This document shows positions 4,836-26,689 of a stretch of 32,000 bases of DNA, piece by piece (within the stretch, counting starts at the first letter, position 1; each line of letters begins with the position of its first letter). The stretch comes from Haloferax volcanii DS2 (lineage in GTDB: Archaea; Halobacteriota; Halobacteria; Halobacteriales; Haloferacaceae), in the NCBI RefSeq assembly GCF_000025685.1, contig NC_013964.1, positions 30,001 to 62,000 on the forward strand. The letters run 5' to 3'. The notes under the pieces were generated by a model, which had not been told where the DNA came from, ran no database searches, and saw only the letters and a program-made list of their open reading frames with translations. The position numbers and the translations under genes were made by a program.

Positions 4836-4859
4836 ACGGGAATCTGGCGACGGACGCTT

Positions 4860-4874: not shown

Positions 4875-4896
4875 GACTTCCGTCGATTGTCATCGT

Positions 4897-5661: not shown

Positions 5662-5856
5662 GCGAGCGGGGCGGTGGCTGAGCGACCGTGGAGTGACGTT
5701 CGTCGATGCCGACGCACCGCTACTGCGAGTCGGTGTCGCGGGCGACGACGCACGACCCCGAACGGCGTCTCGTTCGCCTCTCGAAGGAGCGTTCAGGTTC
5801 TCGCGCGGTAGTTTTCGGGGCGAATCCATCGCGAAGCGCGTTGCTGGGACCCACCG

Positions 5857-5865
5857 TTTTTATAT
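5857..5865 (+). promoter_or_regulatory. xacG upstream TATA-like box TTTTTATAT; a second TATAT lies at 5887-5891
   Basis: There are two AT-rich boxes in an otherwise GC-rich 256-nt intergenic region. The proximal one is 26 nt before ATG 5918 (leaderless spacing). The distal one would give a roughly 30-nt leader. Confidence 0.4.
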
Positions 5866-5878
5866 CATCATCTGCTAT

Positions 5879-5899
5879 CCACAACCTATATGTGTGGGT
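5879..5899. promoter_or_regulatory. quasi-palindromic element CCACAACCTATATGTGTGGGT enclosing the proximal xacG TATA
   Basis: 16 of 21 positions are identical to CCACTACAAAAGTGTGTGGGT at 13068-13088 in the xacD/xacF control region. The arms CCACA / TGTGG are inverted repeats. Confidence 0.4.
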
Positions 5900-5917
5900 A
5901 GATAACATGGGTACTAC

Positions 5918-7297: not shown

Positions 7298-7351
7298 GAC
7301 CTCGGCTGAAACTTCACCCTCATTATACACAAATAAAATATAGGTATATCC

Positions 7352-8305: not shown

Positions 8306-8307
8306 CC

Positions 8308-9237: not shown

Positions 9238-9240
9238 CCC

Positions 9241-10392
9241 ATGGGACAGATTCAACTCACCGACCTGACGAAGCGCTTCGGCGACACGGTCGCCGTCGAC
9301 GACCTCTCGCTCGACATCGACGACGAGGAGTTCCTCGTGCTCGTCGGTCCCTCGGGGTGCGGCAAATCGACGACGCTCCGGATGCTCGCCGGCTTGGAGA
9401 CCCCGACCAGCGGGGACATCTACATCGGCGGGGACCACATGAACTACCGCGTCCCGCAGAACCGCGACATCGCGATGGTGTTTCAGGACTACGCGCTGTA
9501 CCCCCACATGACCGTCCGGCAGAACATCCGGTTCGGGCTCGAAGAAGAGGAGGGATACACGTCTGCGGAGCGCGACGAGCGCGTCGTCGAAGTCGCGGAG
9601 ACGCTCGGCATTGCCGACCTGCTTGACCGCAAGCCCGACGAACTCTCGGGCGGTCAGCAACAGCGGGTCGCGCTCGGGCGCGCCATCGTACGCGACCCCG
9701 AGGTGTTCCTGATGGACGAGCCGCTGTCCAACCTGGACGCCAAGCTCCGGGCGGAGATGCGCACCGAGCTCCAGAACCTGCAGGACCAACTCGCCGTCAC
9801 GACCGTCTACGTCACCCACAACCAGACGGAGGCGATGACGATGGCCGACCGTATCGCCGTCATGGACGACGGCGAACTCCAGCAGGTTGCCTCTCCCTTC
9901 GAGTGCTACCACGAGCCGAACAACCTGTTCGTCGCGGAGTTCATCGGCGAGCCGATGATAAACCTCGTCCGCGGAACGCGCTCGGAGTCGACGTTCGTCG
10001 GTGAACACTTCTCGTACCCGCTCGACGAGGACGTGATGGAGTCCGTCGACGACCGCGACGACTTCGTCTTGGGGGTGCGCCCCGAAGACATCGAAGTCGC
10101 CGACGCGGCCCCCGACGACGCCGCGCTCGACGATCACGATCTCCAGATGGACGTGACCGTCGTGGAGCCCCACGGCGACCAGAACGTCCTCCACCTCTCG
10201 CACCCGGACCAGCCCTCCGCCGACGACGCCCTGCAAGCGGTCACGGAGGGGATGCATCTCGTCACGCGGGGCGACCGCGTCACGGTGACGATTCCGCCGG
10301 ACAAGATTCACCTGTTCGACGCGGAGACCGGAACCGCGGTGCACAACCGACGTCACGACCAGGAAGCCGACTTCACACAACTCGAACAGTAG
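9241..10392 (+). CDS. xacJ: ABC transporter ATP-binding protein (MalK/UgpC-like), copy 1
   Basis: Walker A GPSGCGKST, signature LSGGQQQR, Walker B FLMDEPLS, H-loop VTHNQ, and a C-terminal regulatory/TOBE-like domain. 383 aa. Confidence 0.9.
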   Translation: MGQIQLTDLTKRFGDTVAVDDLSLDIDDEEFLVLVGPSGCGKSTTLRMLAGLETPTSGDIYIGGDHMNYRVPQNRDIAMVFQDYALYPHMTVRQNIRFGLEEEEGYTSAERDERVVEVAETLGIADLLDRKPDELSGGQQQRVALGRAIVRDPEVFLMDEPLSNLDAKLRAEMRTELQNLQDQLAVTTVYVTHNQTEAMTMADRIAVMDDGELQQVASPFECYHEPNNLFVAEFIGEPMINLVRGTRSESTFVGEHFSYPLDEDVMESVDDRDDFVLGVRPEDIEVADAAPDDAALDDHDLQMDVTVVEPHGDQNVLHLSHPDQPSADDALQAVTEGMHLVTRGDRVTVTIPPDKIHLFDAETGTAVHNRRHDQEADFTQLEQ

Positions 10393-10394
10393 CC

Positions 10395-11546
10395 ATGGCA
10401 CGATTGACACTCGACGACGTAACGAAGGTGTACACCGACGAGGGCGGCGGCGATATCGTCGCCGTCGAAGAGATATCGCTCGATATCGACGACGGGGAGT
10501 TCCTCGTGCTCGTCGGCCCCTCGGGCTGCGGGAAATCGACGACGCTCCGGATGATGGCGGGACTCGAAACCGTCACCGAGGGCGAACTCCGACTCGAAGA
10601 CCGCGTCCTCAACGGCGTGTCCGCGCAGGACCGGGACATCGCGATGGTGTTCCAGTCGTACGCGCTGTACCCGCACAAGAGCGTCCGCGGGAACATGTCG
10701 TTCGGCCTCGAAGAGTCGACCGGCCTGCCGGACGACGAGATACGCCAGCGGGTCGAGGAGACGACCGACATGCTCGGCATCAGCGACCTGCTCGACCGCA
10801 AGCCCGGACAGCTTTCGGGCGGCCAGCAACAACGGGTCGCCCTCGGACGCGCGATCGTGCGCGACCCCGAAGTGTTCCTGATGGACGAGCCGTTGTCCAA
10901 TCTGGACGCCAAACTGCGGGCGGAGATGCGGACCGAACTCCAGCGCCTGCAAGGCGAACTCGGCGTGACGACCGTCTACGTCACCCACGACCAGACCGAG
11001 GCGATGACGATGGGCGACCGCGTCGCCGTCCTCGACGACGGCGAACTCCAGCAGGTCGGCACGCCGCTGGACTGTTATCACCGGCCGAACAACCTGTTCG
11101 TCGCGGGCTTCATCGGCGAGCCGTCGATGAATCTCTTCGACGGGTCGCTTTCGGGCGACACCTTCCGCGGCGACGGCTTCGACTACCCGCTTTCGGGCGC
11201 GACCAGAGACCAACTCGGCGGCGCGAGCGGCCTCACGCTCGGCATCCGACCCGAGGACGTTACCGTTGGCGAGCGGCGCTCCGGCCAGCGCACCTTCGAC
11301 GCCGAAGTCGTCGTCGTCGAGCCGCAGGGGAACGAGAACGCCGTCCACCTTCGATTCGTCGACGGGGACGAGGGGACCCAGTTCACCGCGACAACCACCG
11401 GACAGTCGAGAGTCGAAGCGGGCGACCGCACGACCGTCTCGTTCCCCGAAGACGCGATTCACCTGTTCGACGGGGAGACCGGCGACGCGCTGAAGAACCG
11501 AGAGCTCCCGTCGAACCGCGCCATCGACGCGTTCGTCTCGAACTGA
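10395..11546 (+). CDS. xacK: ABC transporter ATP-binding protein (MalK/UgpC-like), copy 2
   Basis: It has the same motifs as xacJ and the same length (383 aa). A 44-aa block, LSGGQQQRVALGRAIVRDPEVFLMDEPLSNLDAKLRAEMRTELQ, is identical to xacJ but encoded with synonymous differences. Confidence 0.9.
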   Translation: MARLTLDDVTKVYTDEGGGDIVAVEEISLDIDDGEFLVLVGPSGCGKSTTLRMMAGLETVTEGELRLEDRVLNGVSAQDRDIAMVFQSYALYPHKSVRGNMSFGLEESTGLPDDEIRQRVEETTDMLGISDLLDRKPGQLSGGQQQRVALGRAIVRDPEVFLMDEPLSNLDAKLRAEMRTELQRLQGELGVTTVYVTHDQTEAMTMGDRVAVLDDGELQQVGTPLDCYHRPNNLFVAGFIGEPSMNLFDGSLSGDTFRGDGFDYPLSGATRDQLGGASGLTLGIRPEDVTVGERRSGQRTFDAEVVVVEPQGNENAVHLRFVDGDEGTQFTATTTGQSRVEAGDRTTVSFPEDAIHLFDGETGDALKNRELPSNRAIDAFVSN

Positions 11547-11553
11547 CCGGTCT

Positions 11554-11577
11554 CCGCGGTTTCCTTTTCGTCCGCGG
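11554..11577 (+). terminator. xacK terminator candidate: CCGCGG-tttccttttcgt-CCGCGG with T-rich tract
   Basis: It starts 8 nt after the xacK stop (11544-11546). It is a 6-bp GC stem with oligo-T runs, consistent with archaeal oligo-T termination. Confidence 0.3.
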
Positions 11578-11671
11578 TTCGCCCGCCGCTGTCAGCCGCC
11601 AGGTTATCTGCCGTCAGCGTCGCGACTGCAACCGCGAGTCGCGTCGCTCCGGTCTCGAACTCAAGCGAGTG

Positions 11672-11700
11672 AAAACGCGGCCGCGGCGGACGCGCCGCGG
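11672..11700 (-). terminator. xacD terminator candidate: 8-bp GC hairpin (CCGCGGCG-gacg-CGCCGCGG, 11681-11700) followed on the minus strand by TTTT (11672-11676 region)
   Basis: A perfect 8-bp stem seen in the sequence. A T4 run lies immediately 3' on the minus strand. It sits about 110-135 nt downstream of the xacD stop, in the convergent intergenic region. Confidence 0.35.
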
Positions 11701-11807
11701 GGCGAGAGATGCTCACGGTTCTCGCCCGCGGTGGTGCGTCCGGGTTATGGGTGTGGTATGTCAGGCTGTCGTGGCCGCTGTGGGACAGTCTCGCTCTCGG
11801 CGTCGGG

Positions 11808-13046
11808 TTACTCCTCGTCGAAGAGCGTCTCCCCTTCGACCATGTGTGCTTCGACGGCGTCGAGGTCGAGCGTCAGCCCGAGGCCGGGCTTTTCGGGAAT
11901 CTCCATGTGACCGTTCTGAATCAGGTCGTCCTCTTCGACGAGGTCCTCCCACCAGCCGAGCTGGTAGGAGTGGTATTCGAGGGCCAGCGAGTTCGGGATG
12001 GCCGCGGCGACCTGCGCGGAGGCCATCGTCCCGATGGGCGACGAGACGTTGTGCATCGCCACGGGGATGTAGTACATGTCCGCGAGGTCGGCAATCTTCC
12101 GCGTCTCGCGCATGCCGCCGACGCGGGGCAGGTCGGGCGCGATGATATCCACCGCCTGCGGTTCGAGCAGCGTCCGCTGGCCGAACTTCCGGTAGACGTT
12201 CTCACCGACCGCGATGGGCGTCGTCGTGGACTGCGTCACGAGCTTCTGCACGTCGTGGTTCTCCGGCGGCACGGGGTCTTCGAGCCACCACACGTCGTAG
12301 TCTTCCAGCTCGGACGCGAGGCGCTTGGCGCTCCCGCCGGTAAAGGACCAGTGGCAGTCGAACGCCACGTCCGCGCGGTCGCCGACGGCCTCGGTGACGG
12401 CCTCGACGATTTCGACCTTGTGGTCGATTTCGGGGTTTCGGAGGTGGCGGTTCGCGCGGTCCTTCTCGTGGCCCGAGGGCACGTCGAGGTCGAACTTGAT
12501 GGCGTCGTAGCCGAGTTCCTCGACCACGCGGACGCCCTCCTCGGCGCAGGCCTGCGGGTTGGCCTCGTCTTCGGTGTGGAGGTCGCAGTAGACGCGCACC
12601 TCGTCGCGGTACTTCCCGCCGACGAGTTGATAGGCGGGCACGTCGAGGAGCTTTCCGGCGACGTCGTGGAGCGCGATTTCGATGCCCGAGATGGCGGAGA
12701 TGACCTTGCCCGAGACGGAGCCCTCGCCGGACATCTTCTGGACGAGATGCTCGTACAGGCGGTCGATGTCGAGGGGGTTCTCGCCGACGAGGAACGGCTT
12801 CATCCGCTCGATGATGGCGGTGTCGCCGCCGCCCCAGTAGGCCTCGCCGGTGCCGACGACGCCCGCGTCGGTGTAGACGCGGACGAGAATCCACGGGTAG
12901 TTCCCGTCGACCATCGTCGTCTGTACGTCCGTGATTTCGGCGTCGCGGACGCCACCTCGCGGATTCGTGATGTCTATCGTCTCCGCGGACAGGTCGCGCA
13001 TCGTGTACTCCGCGTTCGGGTCGCTAAGCTTCGCTTGCTCAACCAT
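11808..13046 (-). CDS. xacD: D-xylonate/L-arabinonate dehydratase, enolase superfamily (mandelate racemase/muconate lactonizing enzyme family)
   Basis: 412-aa ORF with an MR/MLE-like N-terminal capping domain (VRVYTDAGVVGTGEAYWGG) and a barrel domain with acidic metal ligands (KFDLD, WLEDP). Synteny matches HVO_B0038A as recalled. Confidence 0.85.
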   Translation of the reverse strand: MVEQAKLSDPNAEYTMRDLSAETIDITNPRGGVRDAEITDVQTTMVDGNYPWILVRVYTDAGVVGTGEAYWGGGDTAIIERMKPFLVGENPLDIDRLYEHLVQKMSGEGSVSGKVISAISGIEIALHDVAGKLLDVPAYQLVGGKYRDEVRVYCDLHTEDEANPQACAEEGVRVVEELGYDAIKFDLDVPSGHEKDRANRHLRNPEIDHKVEIVEAVTEAVGDRADVAFDCHWSFTGGSAKRLASELEDYDVWWLEDPVPPENHDVQKLVTQSTTTPIAVGENVYRKFGQRTLLEPQAVDIIAPDLPRVGGMRETRKIADLADMYYIPVAMHNVSSPIGTMASAQVAAAIPNSLALEYHSYQLGWWEDLVEEDDLIQNGHMEIPEKPGLGLTLDLDAVEAHMVEGETLFDEE

Positions 13047-13067
13047 TGCGCACGTATATCTCGAAAG

Positions 13068-13088
13068 CCACTACAAAAGTGTGTGGGT
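13068..13088. promoter_or_regulatory. quasi-palindromic element CCACTACAAAAGTGTGTGGGT enclosing the xacD TATA-like box (minus-strand CTTTTGTAG)
   Basis: The TATA-like TTTTGTA (13078 to 13072 on the minus strand) lies 25 nt before ATG 13046. This is the partner of the element at 5879-5899. Confidence 0.4.
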
Positions 13089-13202
13089 CGGTAGTCCGTC
13101 ACTCACCCCGACGCGCGCTCCCGAACTCGCCCCGTCGTCGACAGCCAACAAATAGTGACAGCTTCGCAAGAGTTGTATGTCGGAAGACAGAACGTGTACC
13201 CG

Positions 13203-14651
13203 ATGACGGACCCTAGTAAAAACTACGTCAACGGTGAGTGGGTGACCTCGGAGACCGGCGAGACGACCGAGGTGACGAACCCCGCGAACCCGAGCGAAGT
13301 GGTCGCGGCGTATCAGCACTCGAACGAGAACGACGCCGCGGCGGCCGTCGACGCCGCCGTCGCGGCGGAAGACGAGTGGCGAAACACGCCCGGCCCCGAG
13401 CGCGGGCGCATCCTCCGCGAGGCGGGGACGCTCCTCGCCCAGCGGAAGGACGAACTGACGGAGATTCTCACCGCCGAAGAGGGGAAGGCGCGGCCCGAAG
13501 CGGCGGGCGAGGTACAGCGCGCCATCGACATCTTCCACTACTTCTCGTCGAAGGCCGCCGACCTCGGCGGCACGAAGAAGGGTGCGAGCGGGCCGAACAC
13601 GAACCTCTACACGCGACAGGAGCCGGTGGGTGTCGCGGCGCTCATCACGCCGTGGAACTACCCGATTGCGATTCCGGCGTGGAAGCTCGCCCCGGCGCTC
13701 GCCGCCGGCAACACCGTCGTCCTCAAGCCCGCCTCCATCGCGCCCGGCGTCGTCATCGAAATCGCCCGCGCGCTCGACGAGGCCGGCCTCCCGGACGGCG
13801 TCCTCAACGTCGTCACCGGACCCGGTAGCTCGGTCGGCAGCGAGTTCATCGGCAACGAGGGCACGGACCTCGTCTCCTTCACCGGCAGCAGTCAAGTCGG
13901 TGAGATGGTGTACGAGCAGGCCACAGACGCCGGCAAGCGCGTCCAGACCGAACTCGGCGGGAAGAACCCGACGCTCGTCGCGGACTCCGCGAACCCCGCC
14001 GAAGCCGCCGACATCGTCGCCAACGGCGGGTTCGGAACCACCGGCCAGTCGTGTACGGCCTGTTCCCGCGCCATCGTCCACGAGGACGTGTACGACGACT
14101 TCGTCGCCGAGCTCGTCGACCGCGCGGAGTCCCTCGACGTCGGCCCCGGTACCGACCACGAGATGGGCCCGCAGGTCAGCGAGTCCGAACTCTCCTCGAC
14201 GCTCGAATACATCGACATCGCCGAGGCCGAGGGCGCGACGCTCGTCGCCGGCGGCGGCGTCCCCGAGGGCGAGGCAGTCGAGACGGGTCATTTCGTCGAG
14301 CCGACGGTGTTCACCGACGTGGACCCCGACATGCGCATCGCACAGGAGGAGGTCTTCGGCCCGGTCGTCGCCGTCATCGAAGTGAGTGACTTCGACGAGG
14401 GGCTGGCGGTCGCGAACGACGTCGACTACGGCCTGTCTGCCAGTATCGTCACCGACGACCACACCGAGGCGAACCGCTTCGTCGACGAGGTCGAAGCCGG
14501 CGTGGTGAAGGTCAACGACAAGACGACCGGCCTCGAACTCCACGTCCCCTTCGGCGGGTTCAAGCGCTCCTCGTCCGAGACGTGGCGCGAGCAGGGCGAC
14601 GCCGGTCTCGACTTCTACACCATCGAAAAGACCGTCTACGACAGCTACTGA
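13203..14651 (+). CDS. xacF: alpha-ketoglutarate semialdehyde dehydrogenase (aldehyde dehydrogenase family)
   Basis: The ALDH family sequence includes ITPWNYP, VLKPA, ELGGKNP and a catalytic Cys context (GQSCTA). I prefer ATG 13203 (MTDPSKNYVNGEWV, 482 aa) over the GTG at 13155 listed in the track. A TTGTATG box lies 23 nt upstream of 13203. Confidence 0.85.
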   Translation: MTDPSKNYVNGEWVTSETGETTEVTNPANPSEVVAAYQHSNENDAAAAVDAAVAAEDEWRNTPGPERGRILREAGTLLAQRKDELTEILTAEEGKARPEAAGEVQRAIDIFHYFSSKAADLGGTKKGASGPNTNLYTRQEPVGVAALITPWNYPIAIPAWKLAPALAAGNTVVLKPASIAPGVVIEIARALDEAGLPDGVLNVVTGPGSSVGSEFIGNEGTDLVSFTGSSQVGEMVYEQATDAGKRVQTELGGKNPTLVADSANPAEAADIVANGGFGTTGQSCTACSRAIVHEDVYDDFVAELVDRAESLDVGPGTDHEMGPQVSESELSSTLEYIDIAEAEGATLVAGGGVPEGEAVETGHFVEPTVFTDVDPDMRIAQEEVFGPVVAVIEVSDFDEGLAVANDVDYGLSASIVTDDHTEANRFVDEVEAGVVKVNDKTTGLELHVPFGGFKRSSSETWREQGDAGLDFYTIEKTVYDSY

Positions 14652-14661
14652 GCGTCCCGCC

Positions 14662-14680
14662 CGGTCGCCGACGGCGACCG
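14662..14680 (+). terminator. xacF terminator candidate: perfect 9-bp-arm palindrome CGGTCGCCG-a-CGGCGACCG, T4 run at 14697-14700
   Basis: It starts 11 nt after the xacF stop (14649-14651). All 9 arm pairs are complementary by inspection. Confidence 0.35.
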
Positions 14681-14703
14681 TCTGCCATCACCTCGTTATT
14701 TTG

Positions 14704-14742
14704 CTCCCTCTTCTCTTCTCCTCTCCTCTCCTCTCCTCCTTC
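14704..14742. repeat. 39-nt uninterrupted polypyrimidine (C/T) tract containing (TCCTC)x4 at 14719-14738
   Basis: Every base from 14704 to 14742 on the plus strand is C or T. This is a homopurine/homopyrimidine microsatellite in the xacF/xacR convergent intergenic region. Confidence 0.9.
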
Positions 14743-14952
14743 GTGTCCCACCCCCGCCGATGCTGTTGTTCCGGCTCGACACCTTTCCATTCTCTATATC
14801 AGAATAGGATGGACGGAACTATTGTCGTGAAAATTACAAGCCTACTCGTGTAATTGTCTATCGTCGTCGTCCGTCGGGAACTACGTCAATACGGTCCTGC
14901 GTCGATGATTCGTGCGGAGCTGCTACTGTTCCGAGATAGCGAACGAGGGGCG

Positions 14953-15708
14953 TCAGTAGTTGATGTTGAGTTCGACGACGTTCGCCGCGCTCAGGACGCG
15001 TTCGGGAAGCGCCCCGTGGAGGTCTTCGTCGCTGACGCGGCTGGCCGGAGCGGAGACGCTGATGGCCCCGAGCACCTCGCCGGACGAGGATTTGATGGGT
15101 GCGGCGAGACAGCGCAGCCCTTCGAGACGCTCGCCGTCGTCGATGGCGTAGCCTCGCTCGCGAACTCCTTCGAGCACCTGAAACAGCTCTTGCCGCGTGC
15201 CGATGCTCTTCGGCGTCTTCTGTTCGAGTCCGTGACGCTCGATTATCTCGTCCACCCGCGACTCCGGGAGGTTCGCGAGAATCGCCTTCCCGAGCGCCGT
15301 CGTGTGTAGGTTCGTCCGAAGGCCCGCGTAGGTGTCGAGGTCCACGGCGTCGTCGCCTTTCGCTCGCATCAGGTAGACGCCCATCCCCTGTTCTTCGACG
15401 AGGAGGTTGGCGAGTTCGCCCGTGTCGGCGGCGAGCGATTTGACCTCTGGCTCGGCGACCTGATACACTTCCATCGACTTCCGACTGTGGCCGCCGACTT
15501 CGAGAAACTTCAACCCGACGCGGTAGTCGTCGCCGTCCTTGAGGACGTACCCGTGTTTCTGGAGCGTCGTCAGGTGGTTGTGGACCGCGCTCTTTCCCAT
15601 GTCGAGGTCGCCGGCCAGTTCCGTGACCCCGCAGGGTCCTTTCTGCATCAACTCCTCGACGAGCGCCAGCGTCTTTTCCGTGGTTCGTACCGGATGTTTG
15701 GCGTCCAT
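14953..15708 (-). CDS. xacR: IclR-family transcriptional regulator of pentose catabolism
   Basis: 251-aa ORF with an N-terminal winged HTH ([28 protein letters not shown]) and a C-terminal IclR effector domain. It lies adjacent to xacF as in the Haloferax xac island. Confidence 0.85.
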
Positions 15709-15727
15709 GATTATTCGTTATCAAGTA

Positions 15728-15744
15728 TCTGAATAAGTGTTCTG
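15728..15744 (-). promoter_or_regulatory. xacR promoter candidate: CAGAACACTTATTCAGA (minus strand), T/A box about 21 nt before ATG 15708
   Basis: It resembles the xacB module GGAACACGTTTATTAGA. It overlaps the imperfect palindrome TTATCAAGTATCTGAATAA (15718-15736). Confidence 0.4.
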
Positions 15745-16366
15745 GTCGGGAGAACGAGGCGCTGTGAACGCGGACTGTCGTTGAGGCGGGACCGCGGATG
15801 CTCTCGCAGCAGATACCTGTTTCACCAGCGGCCCCTTCGTCTCGGTGGACTGGCCGGCCGCCTCCCGTTGTCGGCAGTCTCTCGAACAGGGGTTTCACCA
15901 CGACCACCACTGTCCGTCCCTCGACTATCTCTCTTTCCTCAGTGGTTTTTCTTTTGAATCACAATATTGGAAGCGGTGAACTTCCGTTCCCATCTCATCA
16001 CCGCTCGTCTCTCGCCTTTACTTTTCTTCCACCTCTCCGTCGAAACAACATCCAGTGTTGTTCGGATGTTCTTGAAACTCCGGATTAACGCCCTTTGTGT
16101 CCTGATCGCTGTCTTCCCTGTCGTGTCTGTGACTGCTGGTTTCGTCTCGTAGCGTTGGCAGCGACTGGCAAGTGTAGACGCTTCCTCCTGCTGTTGTCGT
16201 GCAATTAATACGCACTACCATGTTGGATGTCTTTGACCCATCGTTCAGTTTCCGGCCCTCGCTCGTCGTGACTCGTAGTCGAGGACGAACGGTTGGCTCC
16301 ACGGTGGTGACTCGGCATCGGGGAGCGCCGTCGGCGGAGCCGACGTTTCGAGGCCCGCTCAGCGGG

Positions 16367-22003: not shown

Positions 22004-23565
22004 GCGTGTCGGTCGTCGGTCGTCGGTTCGAGAGCGGTTCCGCGGTCCGAAATCTCGCGCAGGAGGTCTCGGAGGTCCTCGCGCGTCGTTCGGGGGTTCA
22101 GGAGCGTCAGCTTCAGACACGTCTCGCCGTCGACGGTGGTGCGGGCCACCACGGCCTCGCCGTCGTCGAGGAGGGAGTCGCGGATGGCCTCGTTCAGGTC
22201 GTCGGCGCTCGGGCCGTTGACCGGGCCGTCGGCCGGGCCGCCGCCGTCTCGTCCGTGGTCGGGGACGTACCGGAACACGACGACGTTCAGGTCGGAGTCG
22301 TGGACGAGCCGCAGGTCGGGGTCGGCCTCGACGAGCCTCGCGGCGTCGGCGGCGAGGTCGATGGTGTACTCGACCATCGACGCCAGCCCCTCGCGGCCGA
22401 GCGCCTGCATCGTCACGAACGGTTTGAGCGCGTCGAATCGCCGGGTGGTCTGGACCGACTTCGAGACGAGGTTCGGCACGCCCGCGTCGTCGTCGCGCAC
22501 GGGGTTCAGATAGGCCGCGTTGCGGTCGATGAGGTCGTACGCCGACGCGTCGCGGACGAGCACCGCGCCGCAGCTAATCGGTTGGTAGAACAGCTTGTGG
22601 AAGTCGACCGCGACGGAGTCCGCGGCCTCGATGCCGGCGAGCTTGTCGGCGTGGTCGTCGCTCAGGGCGAGCGCGCCGCCCCACGCGGCGTCGACGTGGT
22701 ACCAGCAGTCGAGTTCGGCCGCGCGCTCGGCCAGCGGGCCTAACGGGTCGATGCTTCCGAAGTCCGTCTTTCCGGCGGTGGCGACGATTGCGAACGGGCG
22801 TTTCCCGCGCTCGCGGAGGTCCGCCACCGCCTCGTCGAACGCCGCCATCGACAGGCGGCGGTCGTCGTCGGTCGGGACGGTGACGACGGCGTTCTCGCCG
22901 AGGCCGAGGTGCGAAGCGGCCTGCGTGGCGGTGAAGTGGGCGTCGGCCGAACAGAGGATGCGCAGGTCCCGCGCCTCCGGCGGTAGCCCCTCGTGCTGGA
23001 CGTCGACGCCGTACTCCTCCAAAACGACCTTGTTGCGGGCGAGGAGCAGGCCGACGAAGTTCGACTGCGTGCCGCCGCTCGTGAACACGCCGTCGCCGTC
23101 CTCGTAGCCGAACAGGTCGCACAGCTCCCCGACGAACCGCCGTTCGAGCTGCGTCGCGGCGGGGCTCTGGTCCCACGAGTCCATCGACTGGTTCGTCGCC
23201 GTCAGGAGCGCTTCGGCCGCGAGCGCCGGAATCGTCGGCGGACACTGGAGGTGCGCGATGCAGGTCGGGTCGGACACGCCGACCGAGTTTCGCAGAATCG
23301 GCTCGGTGCGGTCGAGCGCCGCGGCCACGCCGTCGCCCTCGTGGGGCAGCATCTCGAACCGGGCGAGCGCGTCGTCGACTTCTTCGGGCGTCGCCCCCGA
23401 GTACGGCGTCGCCTCCGCGGCGAACTCGTCGAGGACGAGGTCGCACGCCCGCCGCATCGCGTCGCGGTAGCGCGCCCGGTCGTCGTCGTCGCCGCTCAGG
23501 AACCACTTCGCGGCGTCCGGTCGCGGGTCGCGGCGCTCGCCGTCGACATCGCCCACGCCGTTCAT
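22000..23565 (-). CDS. bdb: L-2,4-diaminobutyrate decarboxylase (group II PLP-dependent decarboxylase, RhbB-like)
   Basis: Group II decarboxylase sequence with the PLP-lysine context SVAVDFHKLFYQP. Start at ATG 23565 (MNGVGDVDG...), overlapping the dat stop (ATGA). Confidence 0.85.
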   Translation of the reverse strand: MNGVGDVDGERRDPRPDAAKWFLSGDDDDRARYRDAMRRACDLVLDEFAAEATPYSGATPEEVDDALARFEMLPHEGDGVAAALDRTEPILRNSVGVSDPTCIAHLQCPPTIPALAAEALLTATNQSMDSWDQSPAATQLERRFVGELCDLFGYEDGDGVFTSGGTQSNFVGLLLARNKVVLEEYGVDVQHEGLPPEARDLRILCSADAHFTATQAASHLGLGENAVVTVPTDDDRRLSMAAFDEAVADLRERGKRPFAIVATAGKTDFGSIDPLGPLAERAAELDCWYHVDAAWGGALALSDDHADKLAGIEAADSVAVDFHKLFYQPISCGAVLVRDASAYDLIDRNAAYLNPVRDDDAGVPNLVSKSVQTTRRFDALKPFVTMQALGREGLASMVEYTIDLAADAARLVEADPDLRLVHDSDLNVVVFRYVPDHGRDGGGPADGPVNGPSADDLNEAIRDSLLDDGEAVVARTTVDGETCLKLTLLNPRTTREDLRDLLREISDRGTALEPTTDDRHA

Positions 23566-24941
23566 GCGGCGACCTCCCGGCGGCCGTCGGCGTCGGCGTC
23601 CTCGATTGCGGCCTCGACGGCGTCCGCGAAGATGCTCCCGACGGCGTCCACGTCGCTCGGACTGACGACGAGCGGCGGGAGGAACCGGACGACGCTCCCG
23701 TGGCGGCCGCCGAGTTCGAGGATGAGGCCGCGGTCGAAACACGCCTCGCGGACGGCGTCAGCGAGGTCCGGATTCGCCGGGTAGCGCCCGCAGGCGTCGG
23801 ATTCGCCCGCGGGGTCGACGAGTTCGACGCCGAGCATCAGCCCGCGACCGCGCACGTCTCCGACGGCGTCGTGGGCGCGCTCGGTCGCGTCGAGGTGGCC
23901 GCGGAGCCGCTCGCCCATGCGCGCGGCGTGGTCGTCGAGGTCGTGTTCGAGGACGTGTTCGATGGTGGCGATACCGGCGGCCATCGCCAGCTGGTTTCCC
24001 CGGAAGGTGCCGGCGTGCGCACCCGGCTCCCAGACGTCGAGCGACTCGTCGTAGACGACGACCGAAAGCGGGAGCGACCCGCCGATGGCCTTCGAGAGCG
24101 TGACCGCGTCCGGGACGATGTCGGCGTGCTCGAAGGCGTACAGTTCGCCGGTCCGGCCGAGACCGGTCTGAATCTCGTCGACGACCAGCGGGATGTCGCG
24201 TTCGCGGGTCATCCGCCGCACCTCGCGGGTCCAGTCGTCGGGCGCGGGAATCGCGCCGCCCTCGCCCTGCACGAGTTCGACCACCATCCCCGCGGGCTCG
24301 GTGATGCCGCTTTCGGGGTCGTCGAGGGTGCGCTCGACGTACCGGGCGGCGAGTTCGTGGCACTCGTCGCCGCCGACGCCGAACGGACACCGATACTCGT
24401 ACGGATACGGAAGGTGGTGTACGTCGGGCATCAGGCCGGGGACGTTCTCCTTCGGGTCGGTGTCGCCCATCAGGCTCAGCGCGCCGTTGGTCATGCCGTG
24501 GTAGCCGCCCTGAAACCCGAGAACGCTCCGGTTGCCCGTCGCGGTTTTGACGAGTTTGAGCGCGGCCTCGACGGCGTCGGTCCCGGCGGGGCTACAAAAC
24601 TGCACCCGCGCGCTGTCAGCGAACTCGTCGGGGAGGCTGTCGAACAGCGTGTCGACGAACCGCTCCTTGACGGGCGTCGTGATGTCGAGGGTGTGGAGCG
24701 GGCGGTCCTCCGCGAGGACGCGTTCCATCGCCTCGACCACTCTCGGGTGGTTGTGTCCGAGCGCGAGCGTGCCGGCCCCCGCGAGGCAGTCGTAGTACTC
24801 CTCGCCGTCCATGTCGGTGACGGTGACGCCCGAGGCCTCCCGTATCGCGTGCGGGAGGTGTCGGGGATAGGTCCGCGCGCTCGACTCGCGGGCGGCCTGC
24901 TGTTCGAGCAACGCCTCGTTGCCGGCTGCCGGGTCGGTCAT
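23562..24941 (-). CDS. dat: L-2,4-diaminobutyrate:2-oxoglutarate aminotransferase (class III aminotransferase, RhbA-like)
   Basis: 459-aa class III aminotransferase (GFQGGYHG, DEIQTGLGRTG, LSKAIGG PLP-lysine context). It is preceded by a GGAGG Shine-Dalgarno-like element (24950-24954 on the minus strand), 8 nt before the ATG. Confidence 0.85.
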   Translation of the reverse strand: MTDPAAGNEALLEQQAARESSARTYPRHLPHAIREASGVTVTDMDGEEYYDCLAGAGTLALGHNHPRVVEAMERVLAEDRPLHTLDITTPVKERFVDTLFDSLPDEFADSARVQFCSPAGTDAVEAALKLVKTATGNRSVLGFQGGYHGMTNGALSLMGDTDPKENVPGLMPDVHHLPYPYEYRCPFGVGGDECHELAARYVERTLDDPESGITEPAGMVVELVQGEGGAIPAPDDWTREVRRMTRERDIPLVVDEIQTGLGRTGELYAFEHADIVPDAVTLSKAIGGSLPLSVVVYDESLDVWEPGAHAGTFRGNQLAMAAGIATIEHVLEHDLDDHAARMGERLRGHLDATERAHDAVGDVRGRGLMLGVELVDPAGESDACGRYPANPDLADAVREACFDRGLILELGGRHGSVVRFLPPLVVSPSDVDAVGSIFADAVEAAIEDADADGRREVAA

Positions 24942-24993
24942 CGCGCTTCCCTCCGTTGATTCGTCGTCAGTCTATCGCTGTCGAGCATGCATG

Positions 24994-25011
24994 TTTTAGG
25001 CCGGCCTAAAA
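24994..25011. promoter_or_regulatory. perfect 18-bp palindrome TTTTAGGCCGGCCTAAAA upstream of the dat operon (iron-box-like operator candidate, site 1)
   Basis: It is self-complementary over all 18 nt. On the minus strand it is preceded by the TATA-like CTTTTGTG (25020 to 25013) and followed after 1 nt by an ATG (24992). Confidence 0.55.
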
Positions 25012-25035
25012 GCACAAAAGGTTTACTGCAATCTG

Positions 25036-25050
25036 ATTTTCAGTGAAAAT
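25036..25050 (-). terminator. A/T-rich palindrome ATTTTCA-g-TGAAAAT with a T4 run on the minus strand; terminator candidate for the 25300-leftward transcript
   Basis: 7-bp arms seen in the sequence. The minus strand reads GAAATTTTCACTGAAAATC. It lies between the orphan promoter (site 2) and the dat promoter (site 1). Confidence 0.3.
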
Positions 25051-25192
25051 TTCGGGACAGCGCAACCGCTCGTCGGCCGCGACGACCGACTCGCGGCGAC
25101 CGGTCCTACGGTCCAGTTGGGTGCTCTTCCGACGGACGGAGTCGGTGGTCGGTCGCGTTCCGGGGTCCGCCCCGCCCCACCCCGCCGCGGAC

Positions 25193-25300
25193 TCACCTCG
25201 CTTTCGCTCGGCGGAACACCTCCATGAGCGGGGGTTCTCCCTCGACGAACCACGCTGCGGTGACCGCCGGGGACACGCCCATATCTTGGCTCACTGCCAT
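25193..25300 (-). CDS. hypothetical 35-aa small ORF (MAVSQDMGVSPAVTAAWFVEGEPPLMEVFRRAKAR) at the 5' end of a putative iron-regulated small transcript; it may instead be non-coding
   Basis: The ATG lies 2 nt after palindrome site 2, positioned like the binding-protein ATG relative to site 3 (1-nt offset). A TATA-like TTATCATA lies at -28..-21. Third codon positions are mostly G/C. It is too short for the supplied ORF track, and no homology is known to me. Confidence 0.25.
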   Translation of the reverse strand: MAVSQDMGVSPAVTAAWFVEGEPPLMEVFRRAKAR

Positions 25301-25302
25301 AT

Positions 25303-25320
25303 TTTTAGGATAGCCTAAAA
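25303..25320. promoter_or_regulatory. palindrome TTTTAGG-ATAG-CCTAAAA (iron-box-like operator candidate, site 2), orphan
   Basis: 7-bp perfect arms. The core TTAGGATAGCCTAA matches 13 of 14 positions of the first 14 nt of the DtxR consensus as I recall it (TTAGGTTAGCCTAACCTAA). It lies about 80 nt downstream of the binding-protein stop and is not upstream of any annotated gene. Confidence 0.5.
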
Positions 25321-25398
25321 TATGATAAGCGTTCTGGCGGGACGCGCCGCTTGACGGGTGGGCGAAGAGAGAAAGCGGGGCCGCGAACCCGGGGCGAG

Positions 25399-26601
25399 TT
25401 ACAGGTTCCCGTTGGCGATGTCCGCGACGCGCTGGGCGTCGAACAGGCGCTCGTCGGCGTCGTACAGGGTCCGCGCGAGGCGGTCCGTCACGACGAGGTT
25501 CGTGATGGGGCCCTGATAGAGCGCGCCGGCGCGGTAGACGTCGCCGTTCTGGACGGCGGTGAGTTCGCCCGCCACCTCGTGGTTTTCCATGAACGAGACC
25601 ACGGTGTTCTGGAACTCCTCGCGTGTCTTGGCCTCCTGTCCGCGCACGAGGAGCACTTCGGGGTCGACCTCAAGCAGCGTCTCGAAGTCGACCGCGCCGC
25701 GGTTGCTGTAGAAGTCCCGCACCTCGGTCGTCGCGAGCGCGTCGTTGACTTTCAGGTCGTTGAGATGCTTGAAGCTCGTCCCCTCGTCGATGACGTAGGG
25801 GTAGAACTCCTCTGGCTCGTCGCCGCCGGCCCAGACGACCGCGGCCGAGGGCCGCTCGCCCTGCGCGGGGACGACCGGCGCGAGGTTCGACTGGAACTCC
25901 TCGTGGACCTGTTCGAACGCCTCGAAGCGGTCCTCGCGCTGGAACACCTGCGCGAACTTCTCGAACGCCTCGTAGAGAGTGTAGTAGCGGTAGTCCTCGT
26001 GCCACGCGTAGCCGCGCGAGAAGATGCTGTTGCCGAAGAACGGCCCGACCTGCGTGCTGATTTCCTCGATGTCGGCCTCGCTCCACTGGCCGCGGTTCAG
26101 GAGGAAGTTCGGGTCGGCGATGTGCACGTCCGCGTTCAGCTCGTAGAACTGCTCTTTGCCGACGCCGCTGTCGCCCCACAGCTGGCGGATGGACGACTTG
26201 TCGACGCTCACGTCCGGAATCTCGTCGTAGTACTGCGTGTGGTACCGGCCGGGGAGCCAAACGCCCATCGGCGTGTCGAGCCCGAGCGCGACGCCCATGT
26301 CGGCCCAACTGCCGTTGTTCGCAATCCACGCCTCCGGGACCGAATCGAACGTGACCTCGCCGACCGGCTCTATCGACACCGAGTAGGACTCCGCCGCCTC
26401 GGTCGTCGTCTCTGTCTCGGTCTCCGTCGCCGCCTCGGTCGTCGCGGCCGTGGTCGTCTCGGGCTCGGACGCCGTCGTCGTCGTCTCCGACCCGCTCCCG
26501 CCGGTACAGCCGGCGAGCAGGCCGCCTGCGATGACCGCGCCGCCGTACTGGAGGTACTCGCGCCGCGTCGATTCCCGTCCGCTTTGTCCGTCGTTTGCCA
26601 T
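25399..26601 (-). CDS. iron(III)-siderophore ABC transporter substrate-binding lipoprotein (periplasmic binding protein, FecB/FhuD-type), Tat signal plus lipobox
   Basis: 400-aa ORF with a twin-arginine motif (STRREYLQY), a lipobox (LLAGC), a Thr/Glu/Ala-rich linker and a type-2 periplasmic-binding-protein-like body. It lies next to the siderophore operon. No cognate permease or ATPase is in the window. Confidence 0.85.
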   Translation of the reverse strand: MANDGQSGRESTRREYLQYGGAVIAGGLLAGCTGGSGSETTTTASEPETTTAATTEAATETETETTTEAAESYSVSIEPVGEVTFDSVPEAWIANNGSWADMGVALGLDTPMGVWLPGRYHTQYYDEIPDVSVDKSSIRQLWGDSGVGKEQFYELNADVHIADPNFLLNRGQWSEADIEEISTQVGPFFGNSIFSRGYAWHEDYRYYTLYEAFEKFAQVFQREDRFEAFEQVHEEFQSNLAPVVPAQGERPSAAVVWAGGDEPEEFYPYVIDEGTSFKHLNDLKVNDALATTEVRDFYSNRGAVDFETLLEVDPEVLLVRGQEAKTREEFQNTVVSFMENHEVAGELTAVQNGDVYRAGALYQGPITNLVVTDRLARTLYDADERLFDAQRVADIANGNL

Positions 26602-26604
26602 GTC

Positions 26605-26622
26605 TTTTAGGCCTCCCTAAAT
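26605..26622. promoter_or_regulatory. palindrome TTTTAGG-CCTC-CCTAAAT (iron-box-like operator candidate, site 3) between TATA and ATG of the binding-protein gene
   Basis: On the minus strand TTTAGG is at -20..-15 and CCTAAA at -10..-5 relative to ATG 26601. The TATA-like TTTTAA (26630 to 26625) lies 23 nt before the ATG. Confidence 0.55.
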
Positions 26623-26641
26623 GGTTAAAACGTCTTCGGAA

Positions 26642-26656
26642 TTTAGGCGAGCCTAA
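26642..26656. promoter_or_regulatory. degenerate palindrome TTTAGG-CGAG-CCTAA (site 4), upstream of the binding-protein TATA box
   Basis: Same arm sequences and 4-nt spacer as sites 1-3, with one arm one base shorter. Its centre lies 36 bp from the centre of site 3. Confidence 0.4.
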
Positions 26657-26689
26657 CTACCTTCGCGCGGGGCGGGGGAAGGAGGCGGC

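What the first reader, a model, noticed from the sequence alone, without database searches (positions are those of the whole stretch)
24994..26656. A TTTAGG-N4-CCTAAA palindrome recurs four times and sits between TATA box and start point of three leftward promoters: candidate archaeal iron-box operator
The four sites are as follows.
- Site 1: 24994-25011, TTTTAGGCCGGCCTAAAA, a perfect 18-mer.
- Site 2: 25303-25320, TTTTAGGATAGCCTAAAA.
- Site 3: 26605-26622, TTTTAGGCCTCCCTAAAT.
- Site 4: 26642-26656, TTTAGGCGAGCCTAA.
I saw this motif nowhere else in the 32 kb. On the minus strand, sites 1, 2 and 3 are each preceded directly by a T/A-rich TATA-like box (CTTTTGTG, TTATCATA, TTTTAA). Each is followed within 1-4 nt by an ATG (24992, 25300, 26601). 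The operator would therefore cover roughly -20 to -3 of a leaderless-type start. This placement is typical of repressors that block RNA polymerase recruitment, as described for MDR1, the DtxR homologue of Archaeoglobus. The site 2 core TTAGGATAGCCTAA matches 13 of 14 positions of the left part of the bacterial DtxR/IdeR consensus as I recall it. The genes served are iron-acquisition genes. No DtxR/Idr/SirR-type regulator gene lies in this window, so the regulator must be encoded elsewhere.
Basis: partly seen in the sequence, partly recalled or inferred. Interest (0 to 1): 0.75.

Follow-up and report, generated by a model that had tools for sequence, protein, structure and literature searches.

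The report
Known TroR iron-repressor operators, Haloferax siderophore locus
The four palindromes are real and are binding sites for the iron-sensing repressor TroR in front of siderophore and iron-uptake genes of Haloferax volcanii, but this motif and two of these sites were already published and tested in 2023, so the finding is correct and not new.

Summary
TTTAGG-N4-CCTAAA occurs at 24995-25010, 25304-25319 and 26606-26621 (exact) and at 26642-26657 (1 mismatch), nowhere else in the window; shuffles expect 0.

The window is the Haloferax volcanii pHV3 siderophore locus (iucABDC-bdb-dat plus binding protein HVO_B0047). The motif equals the published TroR (DtxR-family) ChIP-seq motif TTTAGGC-NNN-CCTAAAANAN. 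Sites 3 and 4 are the two motifs whose joint mutation abolished iron repression of P(hvo_B0047) (PMC10783522). Hence: already known.

New here:
- In 76 of 80 haloarchaeal sequences, a copy ends 2-7 nt before the binding-protein start codon. In 55, a second copy lies 34-37 bp upstream. The pair brackets a conserved BRE/TATA.
  - Site 4 is the distal partner of site 3, not a fourth promoter.
  - Site 2 heads a 35-codon remnant of an IucA/IucC paralogue that is intact in Hfx. gibbonsii.
  - dat is not leaderless and ATG 24992 is not conserved. The conserved ATG (24988) opens a 16-codon upstream ORF whose stop overlaps the dat start (ATGA). This arrangement occurs in 12 of 14 replicons against 0.5 expected.

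That upstream ORF is the only possibly new item.

The parts
26642..26657 (.). Site 4: distal operator of the binding-protein promoter (TTTAGGCGAGCCTAAC, 1 mismatch). It lies at -41 to -56 if +1 is the A of ATG 26601, directly upstream of the BRE-like element.
   Evidence: A second copy 34-37 bp upstream of the proximal one is present in 55 of 80 orthologous promoters. It is one of the two motifs in the 150 bp cloned and mutated in PMC10783522.
26634..26638 (-). BRE-like CGAAG of the binding-protein promoter (-37 to -33)
   Evidence: The consensus of 76 orthologous promoters shows CGaAa at this register. The haloarchaeal BRE consensus CGAAA is given in PMC4983044.
26625..26630 (-). TATA box TTTTAA of the binding-protein promoter (-29 to -24)
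   Evidence: The consensus tTTTaa lies 4-9 nt upstream of the proximal core in 76 promoters. The TATA consensus TTWT is given in PMC4983044.
26606..26621 (.). [quoted passage not shown]
   Evidence: In 76 of 80 sequences a copy ends 2-7 nt (mostly 4-5) before the start codon of the orthologue. The arms are nearly invariant (8 of 12 arm positions 76 of 76, the rest 59-74) and the centre is variable.
25399..26601 (-). Siderophore-type ABC substrate-binding protein (HVO_B0047 equivalent), 400 aa. Its N-terminus carries an STRREYL twin-arginine-like signal and an LAGC lipobox.
   Evidence: Pfam Peripla_BP_2, E 1.1e-16. Translation. The 457-nt gap to dat equals the published value for HVO_B0046/B0047 (PMC7407949).
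25323..25328 (-). TATA-like TTATCA preceding site 2
   Evidence: Same register as the consensus promoter. CTTAT is invariant in 8 Haloferax sequences.
25304..25319 (.). Site 2: operator of an orphan promoter (TTTAGGATAGCCTAAA)
   Evidence: Conserved in 8 Haloferax sequences. In Hfx. gibbonsii, Hfx. prahovense and Haloferax sp. Q22 the same site heads an IucA/IucC gene: 608 aa in gibbonsii, and two shifted pieces in prahovense.
25193..25300 (-). 35-codon ORF (MAVSQDMGVSPAVTAAWF...). It is the remnant of the 5' end of a lost IucA/IucC paralogue; only about the first 16 codons are homologous to the intact gene.
   Evidence: translation; alignment; the start codon is ATA in Hfx. chudinovii and there are indels in Hfx. 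massiliensis; window 25264-25405 and 24912-25101 align to the two flanks of the gibbonsii gene, with about 1.9 kb missing between them.
25014..25019 (-). TATA-like TTTTGT of the dat operon promoter
   Evidence: Same register (-9 to -4 from the core) as the 76-promoter consensus. Conserved in Haloferax.
24995..25010 (.). Site 1: operator of the dat-bdb-iucABDC promoter (TTTAGGCCGGCCTAAA; perfect 18-mer 24994-25011)
   Evidence: A site is conserved upstream of dat in 16 haloarchaeal replicons, often as a tandem pair. dat is derepressed in the troR deletion strain (PMC10783522).
24938..24988 (-). 16-codon upstream ORF (MLDSDRLTTNQRREAR*). It starts 6 nt after site 1, and its TGA overlaps the dat ATG (ATGA).
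   Evidence: translation; the same arrangement in 12 of 14 replicons from 9 genera, with unconserved peptides; 12 of 14 observed against 0.48 expected.
23562..24941 (-). dat (diaminobutyrate-2-oxoglutarate aminotransferase, HVO_B0046 equivalent), first gene of the hexacistronic siderophore operon
   Evidence: Pfam Aminotran_3, E 5e-87. ATGA overlap with bdb. An iron-repressed transcript of about 9 kb is reported in PMC7407949.

Best explanation
The four 16-bp palindromes are operators for the Fe-loaded DtxR-family repressor TroR of Haloferax volcanii, most likely one dimer per palindrome (inferred).

At the binding-protein gene, two operators 36 bp apart bracket the core promoter. The distal one (-41 to -56) abuts the BRE. 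The proximal one (-5 to -20) fills the gap between the TATA box and a leaderless start. When iron is sufficient, TroR occupies them and prevents assembly of the pre-initiation complex. At the proximal site this most plausibly works by blocking RNA polymerase recruitment, as shown for MDR1 (inferred). When iron is scarce, TroR leaves and transcription starts.

Site 1 does the same for the promoter of the dat-bdb-iucABDC siderophore operon. Its [18 protein letters not shown] begins at or next to ATG 24988 and carries a 16-codon upstream ORF that ends in the dat start codon.

Site 2 is the operator of a promoter whose gene, a third IucA/IucC synthetase, was deleted in the volcanii lineage.

Shown by others: TroR binding at this locus, iron- and TroR-dependent repression, and sufficiency of either of sites 3 and 4. 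Shown here: exact positions, chance expectation, conservation, and geometry relative to BRE/TATA. Inferred: transcription start points, one dimer per site, and the steric mechanism.
For: - Motif and chance: four copies against 0 expected.
- Gene context: siderophore synthesis genes and a Peripla_BP_2 binding protein.
- Identity with the published TroR ChIP-seq motif; reporter mutagenesis of the two motifs in the 150 bp upstream of hvo_B0047; dat derepressed only in the troR deletion strain (PMC10783522).
- HVO_B0047 protein is 5.2-fold up under iron starvation and its gene is preceded by 'DtxR binding motif I' (PMC11349517 supplement).
- The operon transcript is about 44-fold induced without iron (PMC7407949).
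- Window identity: the 457-nt dat/binding-protein gap and the ATGA overlaps match the published description. The nearest plasmids are Hfx. alexandrinus and Hfx. lucentense at 98.3-98.6%.
- Conservation: a copy 2-7 nt before the start codon in 76 of 80 sequences, and a tandem copy at 34-37 bp in 55.
- Consensus: distal site, CGaAa, tTTTaa, proximal site, 4 nt, ATG. The arms are nearly invariant (8 of 12 positions 76 of 76) and the centre variable, which fits base-specific protein contacts.
- Tandem 34-36 bp spacing also occurs at other promoters in the fetched loci.
- Operators upstream of dat in 16 replicons.
- MDR1 precedent for blocking RNA polymerase downstream of the TATA box (PMC2995911).
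Against: - No transcription start site is on record for these genes in the held dRNA-seq tables, so the positions relative to +1 are inferred from promoter geometry and the adjacent ATGs.
- I could not read the paper's peak and motif tables (not held). TroR occupancy of sites 1 and 2 individually, as opposed to the locus, is therefore not documented to me.
- 36 bp is about 3.4 helical turns, so the two dimers would sit on different faces. That argues against simple cooperative contact and leaves the role of the distal site open.
- No biochemical footprint of TroR is available to me.
Confidence: 0.92

Rival explanations
1. The palindromes are bound mainly by another regulator, either one of the other two DtxR paralogues (Idr, SirR) or an unrelated factor. 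TroR would then act only indirectly.
For: Hfx. volcanii has three DtxR paralogues, and TroR represses idr (PMC10783522). Paralogues of one family often recognise related palindromes.
Against: hvo_B0046 stays iron-repressed in the idr and sirR deletion strains and is derepressed only in the troR deletion strain. The motif was derived from TroR ChIP-seq peaks and was found in all 32 intergenic peaks. [quoted passage not shown] According to the same paper, SirR looks like a manganese regulator with its own motif.
Confidence: 0.04
2. The palindromes act as RNA hairpins, either as terminators of the upstream genes (site 4 lies 33 nt after the methyltransferase stop, site 2 lies 80 nt after the binding-protein stop) or as 5' structures, rather than as DNA operators.
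For: Each can form a 5-7 bp stem with a 4-nt loop, flanked by T and A runs. Two of them lie shortly after stop codons.
Against: Folding energies are weak and mostly no better than shuffles (z -0.1 to -2.2). Across 76 species the arms are kept as fixed sequence with no compensatory changes, while the loop-equivalent centre varies; this is the signature of sequence-specific protein recognition. The proximal copies sit upstream of the inferred start points and would not be transcribed from their own promoters. Mutation of the motifs changes iron regulation in a TroR-dependent way.
Confidence: 0.02
3. Site 2 is not a dead relic. It would be a working iron-regulated promoter that makes a long-leader version of the dat operon mRNA or a small iron-regulated RNA or peptide.
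For: The operator, TATA-like box and ATG of site 2 are intact and invariant in 8 Haloferax sequences, although the gene behind it is gone in 5 of them. The operon transcript was sized at about 9000 nt against 8600 nt of coding sequence (PMC7407949), which would leave room for a leader of about 360 nt. A gene caller placed a 29-aa ORF here.
Against: The start codon is ATA in Hfx. chudinovii and the frame is broken by indels in Hfx. massiliensis, so the peptide is not conserved. A T-rich palindrome, ATTTTCAGTGAAAAT (25036-25050), lies between site 2 and the dat promoter and could terminate such a transcript. Northern sizing at 9 kb cannot resolve 300 nt. The deletion may simply be recent.
Confidence: 0.3
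4. The recurrence is chance, or merely reflects AT-rich promoter DNA in a GC-rich genome.
For: Intergenic DNA of haloarchaea is AT-richer than coding DNA, and the motif is AT-rich.
Against: 0 of 100 shuffles gave even one match. The motif is positionally conserved in 76 of 80 sequences from many genera.
Confidence: 0.01

Closest known systems
TroR cis-regulatory motif of Haloferax volcanii (Martinez Pastor et al., Nucleic Acids Res 2023/2024, PMC10783522)
   Same: Same organism group, same locus and same sequence (TTTAGGC-NNN-CCTAAAANAN). The paper reports tandem copies 'about 30 bp apart' in P(hvo_B0047), iron-dependent repression requiring TroR, and either copy being sufficient. Sites 3 and 4 are those two copies.
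   Different: Nothing essential. In the text I could read, the paper does not place the motif relative to BRE, TATA and start point, and it treats P(hvo_B0047) as the operon promoter. It does not mention the separate operators in the 457-nt gap before dat (sites 1 and 2), the lost gene behind site 2, or the upstream ORF.
Haloarchaeal DtxR 'motif I' iron regulon from comparative genomics (Leyn and Rodionov, J Bacteriol 2015; known to me only through PMC11349517 and PMC10783522)
   Same: A conserved DtxR-type site upstream of siderophore-uptake binding proteins, including HVO_B0047, across haloarchaea. My scan of 79 species reproduces that conservation.
   Different: The paper itself is not held, so I could not compare its consensus or site list with these four sites.
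Bacterial DtxR/IdeR iron box, 19-bp TTAGGTTAGCCTAACCTAA (PMC7762939)
   Same: Same regulator family. It shares TTAGG/CCTAA arm pentamers, and a 14-bp stretch of the consensus (TTAGGTTAGCCTAA) matches site 2 at 13 of 14 positions. It has the same logic of Fe-dependent repression of siderophore genes by occlusion.
   Different: The archaeal unit is a 16-bp palindrome with TTAGG and CCTAA 4 bp apart, not 9 bp. The sites match only 12-15 of 19 positions. The bacterial box binds two dimers on opposite faces. Here two separate palindromes 36 bp apart flank an archaeal BRE/TATA instead of overlapping a sigma-70 promoter.
MDR1, metal-dependent DtxR-family repressor of Archaeoglobus fulgidus
   Same: An archaeal DtxR homologue whose operator lies downstream of the TATA box and which blocks RNA polymerase while TBP and TFB can still bind (as summarised in PMC2995911). 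The proximal sites here occupy the equivalent position.
   Different: The mechanism is not tested for TroR.

Membership tests
Haloarchaeal TroR (DtxR-family) operator | Sequence fits TTTAGGC-NNN-CCTAAAANAN | tested here: met
   Three exact and one 1-mismatch match to TTTAGG-N4-CCTAAA. Published motif from PMC10783522.
Haloarchaeal TroR (DtxR-family) operator | Lies in promoter regions of iron-uptake or siderophore genes | tested here: met
   Upstream of dat-bdb-iucABDC and of a Peripla_BP_2 binding protein. Site 2 lies upstream of an IucA/IucC gene in relatives.
Haloarchaeal TroR (DtxR-family) operator | Conserved at orthologous promoters in other haloarchaea | tested here: met
   76 of 80 binding-protein promoters and 16 dat promoters.
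Haloarchaeal TroR (DtxR-family) operator | Occupied by TroR in vivo under iron-replete conditions | not testable with these tools
   A ChIP-seq peak at the siderophore locus is reported in PMC10783522. The per-site tables are not held.
Haloarchaeal TroR (DtxR-family) operator | Mutation of the motif abolishes iron- and TroR-dependent repression | not testable with these tools
   Published for the two motifs of P(hvo_B0047), which are sites 3 and 4. Not reported for sites 1 and 2 in the text I could read.
Bacterial DtxR/IdeR 19-bp iron box | 19-bp interrupted palindrome TTAGGTTAGCCTAACCTAA (9-1-9) that binds two dimers | tested here: not met
   Best ungapped matches are 12, 15, 12 and 13 of 19. 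The symmetry unit is 16 bp, with the arms 5 bp closer together (consensus). It works like an iron box but is not that box.
MDR1-type repression (RNA polymerase exclusion downstream of TATA) | [quoted passage not shown] | tested here: inconclusive
   The geometry fits if +1 is the adjacent ATG: TATA at -29 to -24 and the core at -5 to -20. No mapped start site is available.
MDR1-type repression (RNA polymerase exclusion downstream of TATA) | Repressor blocks RNA polymerase but not TBP/TFB binding in vitro | not testable with these tools
   Needs in vitro transcription and footprinting with TroR.
Leaderless upstream ORF coupled to the main ORF by stop/start overlap | Start codon at the transcript 5' end, stop overlapping the downstream start, conserved in position but not in sequence | tested here: inconclusive
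   Position and overlap are conserved in 12 of 14 replicons against 0.48 expected. The 5' end and translation are not shown. Coupling at 4-nt overlaps in Hfx. volcanii is described in PMC7407949.

The most novel reading that the evidence does not exclude
The operator itself is known, so the most novel reading that remains concerns its immediate downstream partner. The TroR-controlled dat promoter would fire a transcript that starts with a leaderless mini-ORF of 16-26 codons. Its sequence is free to vary, but its stop is held on the dat start codon ((A/G)TGA) in at least nine haloarchaeal genera. Ribosomes that load at the 5' end would thus be handed to dat by termination-reinitiation, extending the chain of 4-nt overlaps through the whole siderophore operon. 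This would show how a bacterial operon acquired by lateral transfer was adapted to leaderless translation in haloarchaea. In addition, site 2 may still drive an iron-regulated orphan transcript.
Probability: 0.4. Interest if true: 0.45.

Novelty: already known. Interest (0 to 1): 0.22.

Why it matters
For the scan, it shows that the first-stage reader can recover a genuine, experimentally validated regulatory element from raw sequence. It adds no new biology about the operator.

The modest additions are these:
- A precise, widely conserved promoter architecture: distal operator, BRE, TATA, proximal operator, leaderless ATG, with 36-bp spacing. This gives a concrete steric model for TroR repression that the published work did not spell out.
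- The dat operon has its own operator-bearing promoter in the 457-nt gap, which has apparently not been tested.
- An orphan operator marks a lost synthetase gene.
- A conserved upstream ORF is fused by stop/start overlap to dat. It is cheaply testable and bears on how leadered genes are translated in haloarchaea.

Tried and rejected
- The collection of GTDB species-representative genomes (genome contigs) gave no 100% match for the binding protein; the best was 91%. pHV3 is not in the plasmid collection; the best hits were Hfx. alexandrinus and Hfx. lucentense at 98.3-98.6%. Identity with Hfx. volcanii therefore rests on three things: the 457-nt gap and overlap pattern that match PMC7407949, the closest relatives, and the exact protein being present in 343 blocks of sequencing runs.
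- The supplementary tables of the TroR paper are not held. The Leyn and Rodionov paper is not held.
- The held dRNA-seq supplement of PMC4983044 has no entry for HVO_B0045 to B0048, so no start sites could be taken from data.
- The metagenome scan with dat returned mostly bacterial homologues and only a few haloarchaeal loci. One of those (L086) has no site within 220 nt. Plasmid records were used instead.
- RNA-hairpin or terminator reading: weak energies and no covariation; rejected.
- Mobile-element or longer-repeat reading: no repeat unit extends beyond the palindrome plus the TATA region; rejected.
- A second, distal site upstream of site 1 in the window: the position 36 bp upstream matches only 4 of 12 arm bases (read); rejected. 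Other genera do have a tandem pair at dat.
- Treating the 35-codon ORF after site 2 as a small protein gene: rejected because of a lost start codon and indels in relatives, and because of homology to the 5' end of a full-length gene.
Full report
OBSERVATION. A pattern search for TTTAGGNNNNCCTAAA with up to one mismatch finds exactly four places (three exact, and 26642-26657 with one mismatch), against a mean of 0.00 in 100 dinucleotide-preserving shuffles. Relaxing to three mismatches adds only two weak matches, both inside coding sequence. No longer repeat unit surrounds the palindromes other than the adjoining T/A-rich boxes.

CONTEXT AND ORIGIN.
- The leftward genes are an Aminotran_3 protein (dat, 23562-24941), a PLP decarboxylase (bdb), two IucA/IucC synthetases, a GNAT acetyltransferase, a lysine/ornithine N-monooxygenase, a Peripla_BP_2 binding protein (25399-26601), and then CbiE-, CbiC- and CobN-type genes.
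- The left half of the window holds sugar-acid catabolism and ABC transport genes and an IclR regulator. No Fe_dep_repress/DtxR protein is encoded.
- The gap between dat and the binding-protein gene is 457 nt, and dat and bdb overlap as ATGA. Both match what Niessen and Soppa describe for HVO_B0046/B0047 on pHV3 of Haloferax volcanii (PMC7407949).
- The nearest plasmid records are Hfx. alexandrinus (98.6%) and Hfx. lucentense (98.3%). The exact binding protein occurs in 343 blocks of public sequencing runs.
- I therefore take the window to be Hfx. volcanii pHV3.

WHAT IS ALREADY PUBLISHED.
- Martinez Pastor et al. (PMC10783522) ran ChIP-seq of the DtxR-family factor TroR in Hfx. volcanii. [quoted passage not shown]
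- They showed that hvo_B0046 (dat) is iron-repressed in the parent, idr-deletion and sirR-deletion strains but constitutively high in the troR deletion strain.
- They fused the 150 bp upstream of hvo_B0047 to bgaH. The two tandem motifs there ('about 30 bp apart') were mutated singly and together. Either one suffices for 2- to 3.5-fold iron repression, and mutating both abolishes it. Within 150 bp upstream of ATG 26601 the window holds exactly sites 3 and 4, so these are the tested motifs.
- The proteome study PMC11349517 adds that HVO_B0047 rises 5.2-fold under iron starvation and is preceded by 'DtxR binding motif I'. It credits Leyn and Rodionov (2015) with the comparative-genomics prediction of this regulon. 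That paper is not held.
- The operon is transcribed as one mRNA of about 9 kb that is about 44-fold induced without iron.

WHAT I TESTED MYSELF: CONSERVATION AND GEOMETRY.
- Using the binding protein as bait, I fetched 79 loci from different haloarchaeal species at 46-91% identity. They span Haloferax, Halobellus, Haloarcula, Halorussus, Natrinema, Halorubrum, Halococcus and others.
- A copy of the motif (up to 2 mismatches) ends 2-7 nt before a start codon that opens an ORF of 300 aa or more in 76 of 80 sequences, window included. The spacer is 4 nt in 41 cases and 5 nt in 24.
- 55 of the 80 have a second copy 34-37 bp upstream; the spacing is 36 bp in 38 of them.
- Anchoring the 76 promoters on the proximal core gives this consensus: distal site, CGaAa, 3 nt, tTTTaa, 3 nt, TTTAGGc.aGCCTAAAa, about 4 nt, ATG. 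Eight of the 12 arm positions are identical in all 76 and the other four in 59-74, while the central bases vary.
- CGAAA and TTWT are the haloarchaeal BRE and TATA consensus (PMC4983044).
- In the window, taking the A of ATG 26601 as +1, the positions are: TATA TTTTAA at -29 to -24 (26625-26630), BRE-like CGAAG at -37 to -33 (26634-26638), site 3 at -5 to -20, and site 4 at -41 to -56.
- Sites 1 and 2 have T-rich boxes in the same register: TTTTGT at 25014-25019 and TTATCA at 25323-25328.
- The 34-36 bp tandem spacing also dominates at other promoters within the fetched loci, in 28 of 42 pairs.
- Fixed arm sequence without compensatory change, together with weak folding energies (z -0.1 to -2.2), argues against an RNA-hairpin or terminator role.

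MECHANISM.
- Shown (literature): TroR binds this locus when iron is sufficient and is needed for repression. Either of sites 3 and 4 suffices.
[quoted passage not shown] An occupied site there is expected to exclude RNA polymerase, as described for the DtxR homologue MDR1 of Archaeoglobus fulgidus and for LrpA (PMC2995911).
- The distal operator abuts the BRE and may hinder TFB or upstream contacts.
- 36 bp is about 3.4 turns, so the two bound proteins would lie on different faces. This fits two independent blocks better than a cooperative pair, and it fits the finding that either site alone works.
- One dimer per 16-bp palindrome is inferred from the comparison below.

RELATION TO THE BACTERIAL IRON BOX.
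- The DtxR/IdeR consensus is TTAGGTTAGCCTAACCTAA, bound by two dimers on opposite faces (PMC7762939).
Over 19 bases, however, the four sites reach only 12, 15, 12 and 13 matches.
- The archaeal unit has TTAGG and CCTAA 4 bp apart, not 9 bp. It equals one of the two overlapping 14-bp sub-sites of the bacterial box.
- It works like an iron box and is read by the same protein family, but it is not the 19-bp box.

(a) Site 2.
- In Hfx. gibbonsii, Hfx. prahovense and Haloferax sp. Q22, the same TATA, operator and ATG head an IucA/IucC gene. It is 608 aa in gibbonsii (L007 7297-9123) and appears as two shifted pieces in prahovense.
- That gene is 62.6% identical to the window's iucA and exists in addition to a true iucA orthologue (88% identical) after bdb.
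- In the window and its closest relatives, only the promoter and about 16 homologous codons remain, as a 35-codon ORF at 25193-25300. About 1.9 kb is missing between window 25264 and 25101.
- The start codon is ATA in Hfx. chudinovii, and indels break the frame in Hfx. massiliensis.
- Site 2 is therefore the operator of a promoter that has lost its gene. Whether it still fires is open.

(b) Site 1.
- dat starts at 24941, not near 24992. ATG 24992 opens six codons and is absent from close relatives.
- The conserved ATG is 24988. It opens MLDSDRLTTNQRREAR*, and its TGA is the ATGA of the dat start.

(c) Site 4 is the distal partner of site 3, not a separate promoter.

THE UPSTREAM ORF (NOTICED WHILE CHECKING SITE 1).
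- I collected dat upstream regions from 16 haloarchaeal replicons.
- In 12 of the 14 with dat annotated at the conserved start, an ATG or GTG 2-9 nt after the proximal operator opens an ORF of 16-26 codons. The peptide is not conserved, but the stop overlaps the dat start as ATGA or GTGA. The 12 are: the window; Hfx. gibbonsii, mediterranei and larsenii; Halomarina; Haloprofundus; Natronorubrum; Haladaptatus; Halomicrobium; Halobacterium salinarum pNRC200; Halarchaeum; and Halostella.
- The two Halorussus replicons have TGA-N-ATG instead.
- In Halogeometricum and Halostagnicola, the operator-adjacent ATG is annotated as the dat start itself, giving an N-terminal extension of about the same length.
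- Shuffling each leader while keeping the NTGA gives 0.48 expected cases against 12 observed.
- A GGAGG-like element also precedes dat in most of these sequences.
- Four-nucleotide overlaps signal translational coupling in Hfx. volcanii and run through the whole operon (PMC7407949). Ribo-seq work notes that many novel small ORFs in 5' UTRs end at or inside the next gene (PMC10117724).
- I found no mention of this particular ORF, but my literature access is partial. Its translation and the 5' end are untested.

VERDICT.
- The finding is real and correctly interpreted.
- As far as the operator is concerned it is already known, including direct mutagenesis of two of the four sites.
- The additions from this analysis are incremental: the exact promoter architecture and its breadth of conservation, the untested dat promoter operator, the fossil promoter, and the coupled upstream ORF.
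- Interest is low for the finding as given. The upstream ORF is the only element that might merit a small follow-up.

Noticed in passing
window 24938-24988 (-); also L007 9325-9375, L081, L164-L170, L172, L173: A short ORF of 16-26 codons with unconserved peptide sequence starts 2-9 nt after the proximal operator. Its stop overlaps the dat start codon ((A/G)TGA) in 12 of 14 replicons, against 0.48 expected. It is fused in frame with dat in Halogeometricum and Halostagnicola. In the two Halorussus replicons it ends TGA-N-ATG.
   Followed up: partly
window 25101-25300; L007 7297-9123; L006 7346-9203: The window holds the remnant (promoter, operator and about 16 codons) of a third IucA/IucC synthetase gene. 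The gene is intact in Hfx. gibbonsii and Haloferax sp. Q22. It appears as two shifted pieces in Hfx. prahovense, possibly decaying there too. Halomicrobium also has an IucA/IucC gene directly upstream of dat (L170).
   Followed up: partly
window 25036-25050: A perfect 7-1-7 palindrome, ATTTTCAGTGAAAAT, lies just upstream of the dat promoter's BRE region. It is only partly conserved in close Haloferax species. It may be a T-rich terminator for whatever comes from site 2, or a site for another factor.
   Followed up: no
L088 about 200-400 and L089 about 1380-1480 (bacterial, GC 0.39-0.43): Low-GC bacterial homologues of dat carry Fur-box-like GATAATCATTATC sequences upstream. The siderophore cluster is reported to have come to haloarchaea from Bacillaceae, so the iron control seems to have been rewired from Fur boxes to TroR boxes after transfer.
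   Followed up: no
loci L052-L057, L060-L063, L065-L068, L071, L078 (Natrinema and related genera): In these loci the binding-protein promoter has only the proximal operator and no copy 34-37 bp upstream. Most Haloferax, Haloarcula, Halorussus and Halorubrum loci have the tandem pair.
   Followed up: no
window 26392-26480 (within the binding-protein gene): There is a 12-nt periodic direct repeat (5 copies). It encodes a Thr/Glu/Ala-rich linker just after a twin-arginine-like signal (STRREYL) and an LAGC lipobox, which is typical of a secreted haloarchaeal lipoprotein.
   Followed up: no
window 1-15900: The left half of the window is unrelated to iron. It holds FAA-hydrolase, GFO/IDH/MocA oxidoreductases, an SMP-30 lactonase, a sugar ABC transporter (SBP_bac_1, two permeases, two MalK-type ATPases), an enolase-superfamily dehydratase, an aldehyde dehydrogenase and an IclR regulator (14953-15708). 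It looks like a sugar-acid catabolic cluster and has no TroR-type site.
   Followed up: no
PMC10783522 versus window 24941-25399: The TroR paper uses P(hvo_B0047) as 'the' promoter of the siderophore operon. However, the Northern data (a hexacistronic dat-to-iucC transcript and a 457-nt gap) and sites 1 and 2 in that gap indicate a separate operon promoter with its own operator. In the text I could read, this promoter has not been tested.
   Followed up: partly
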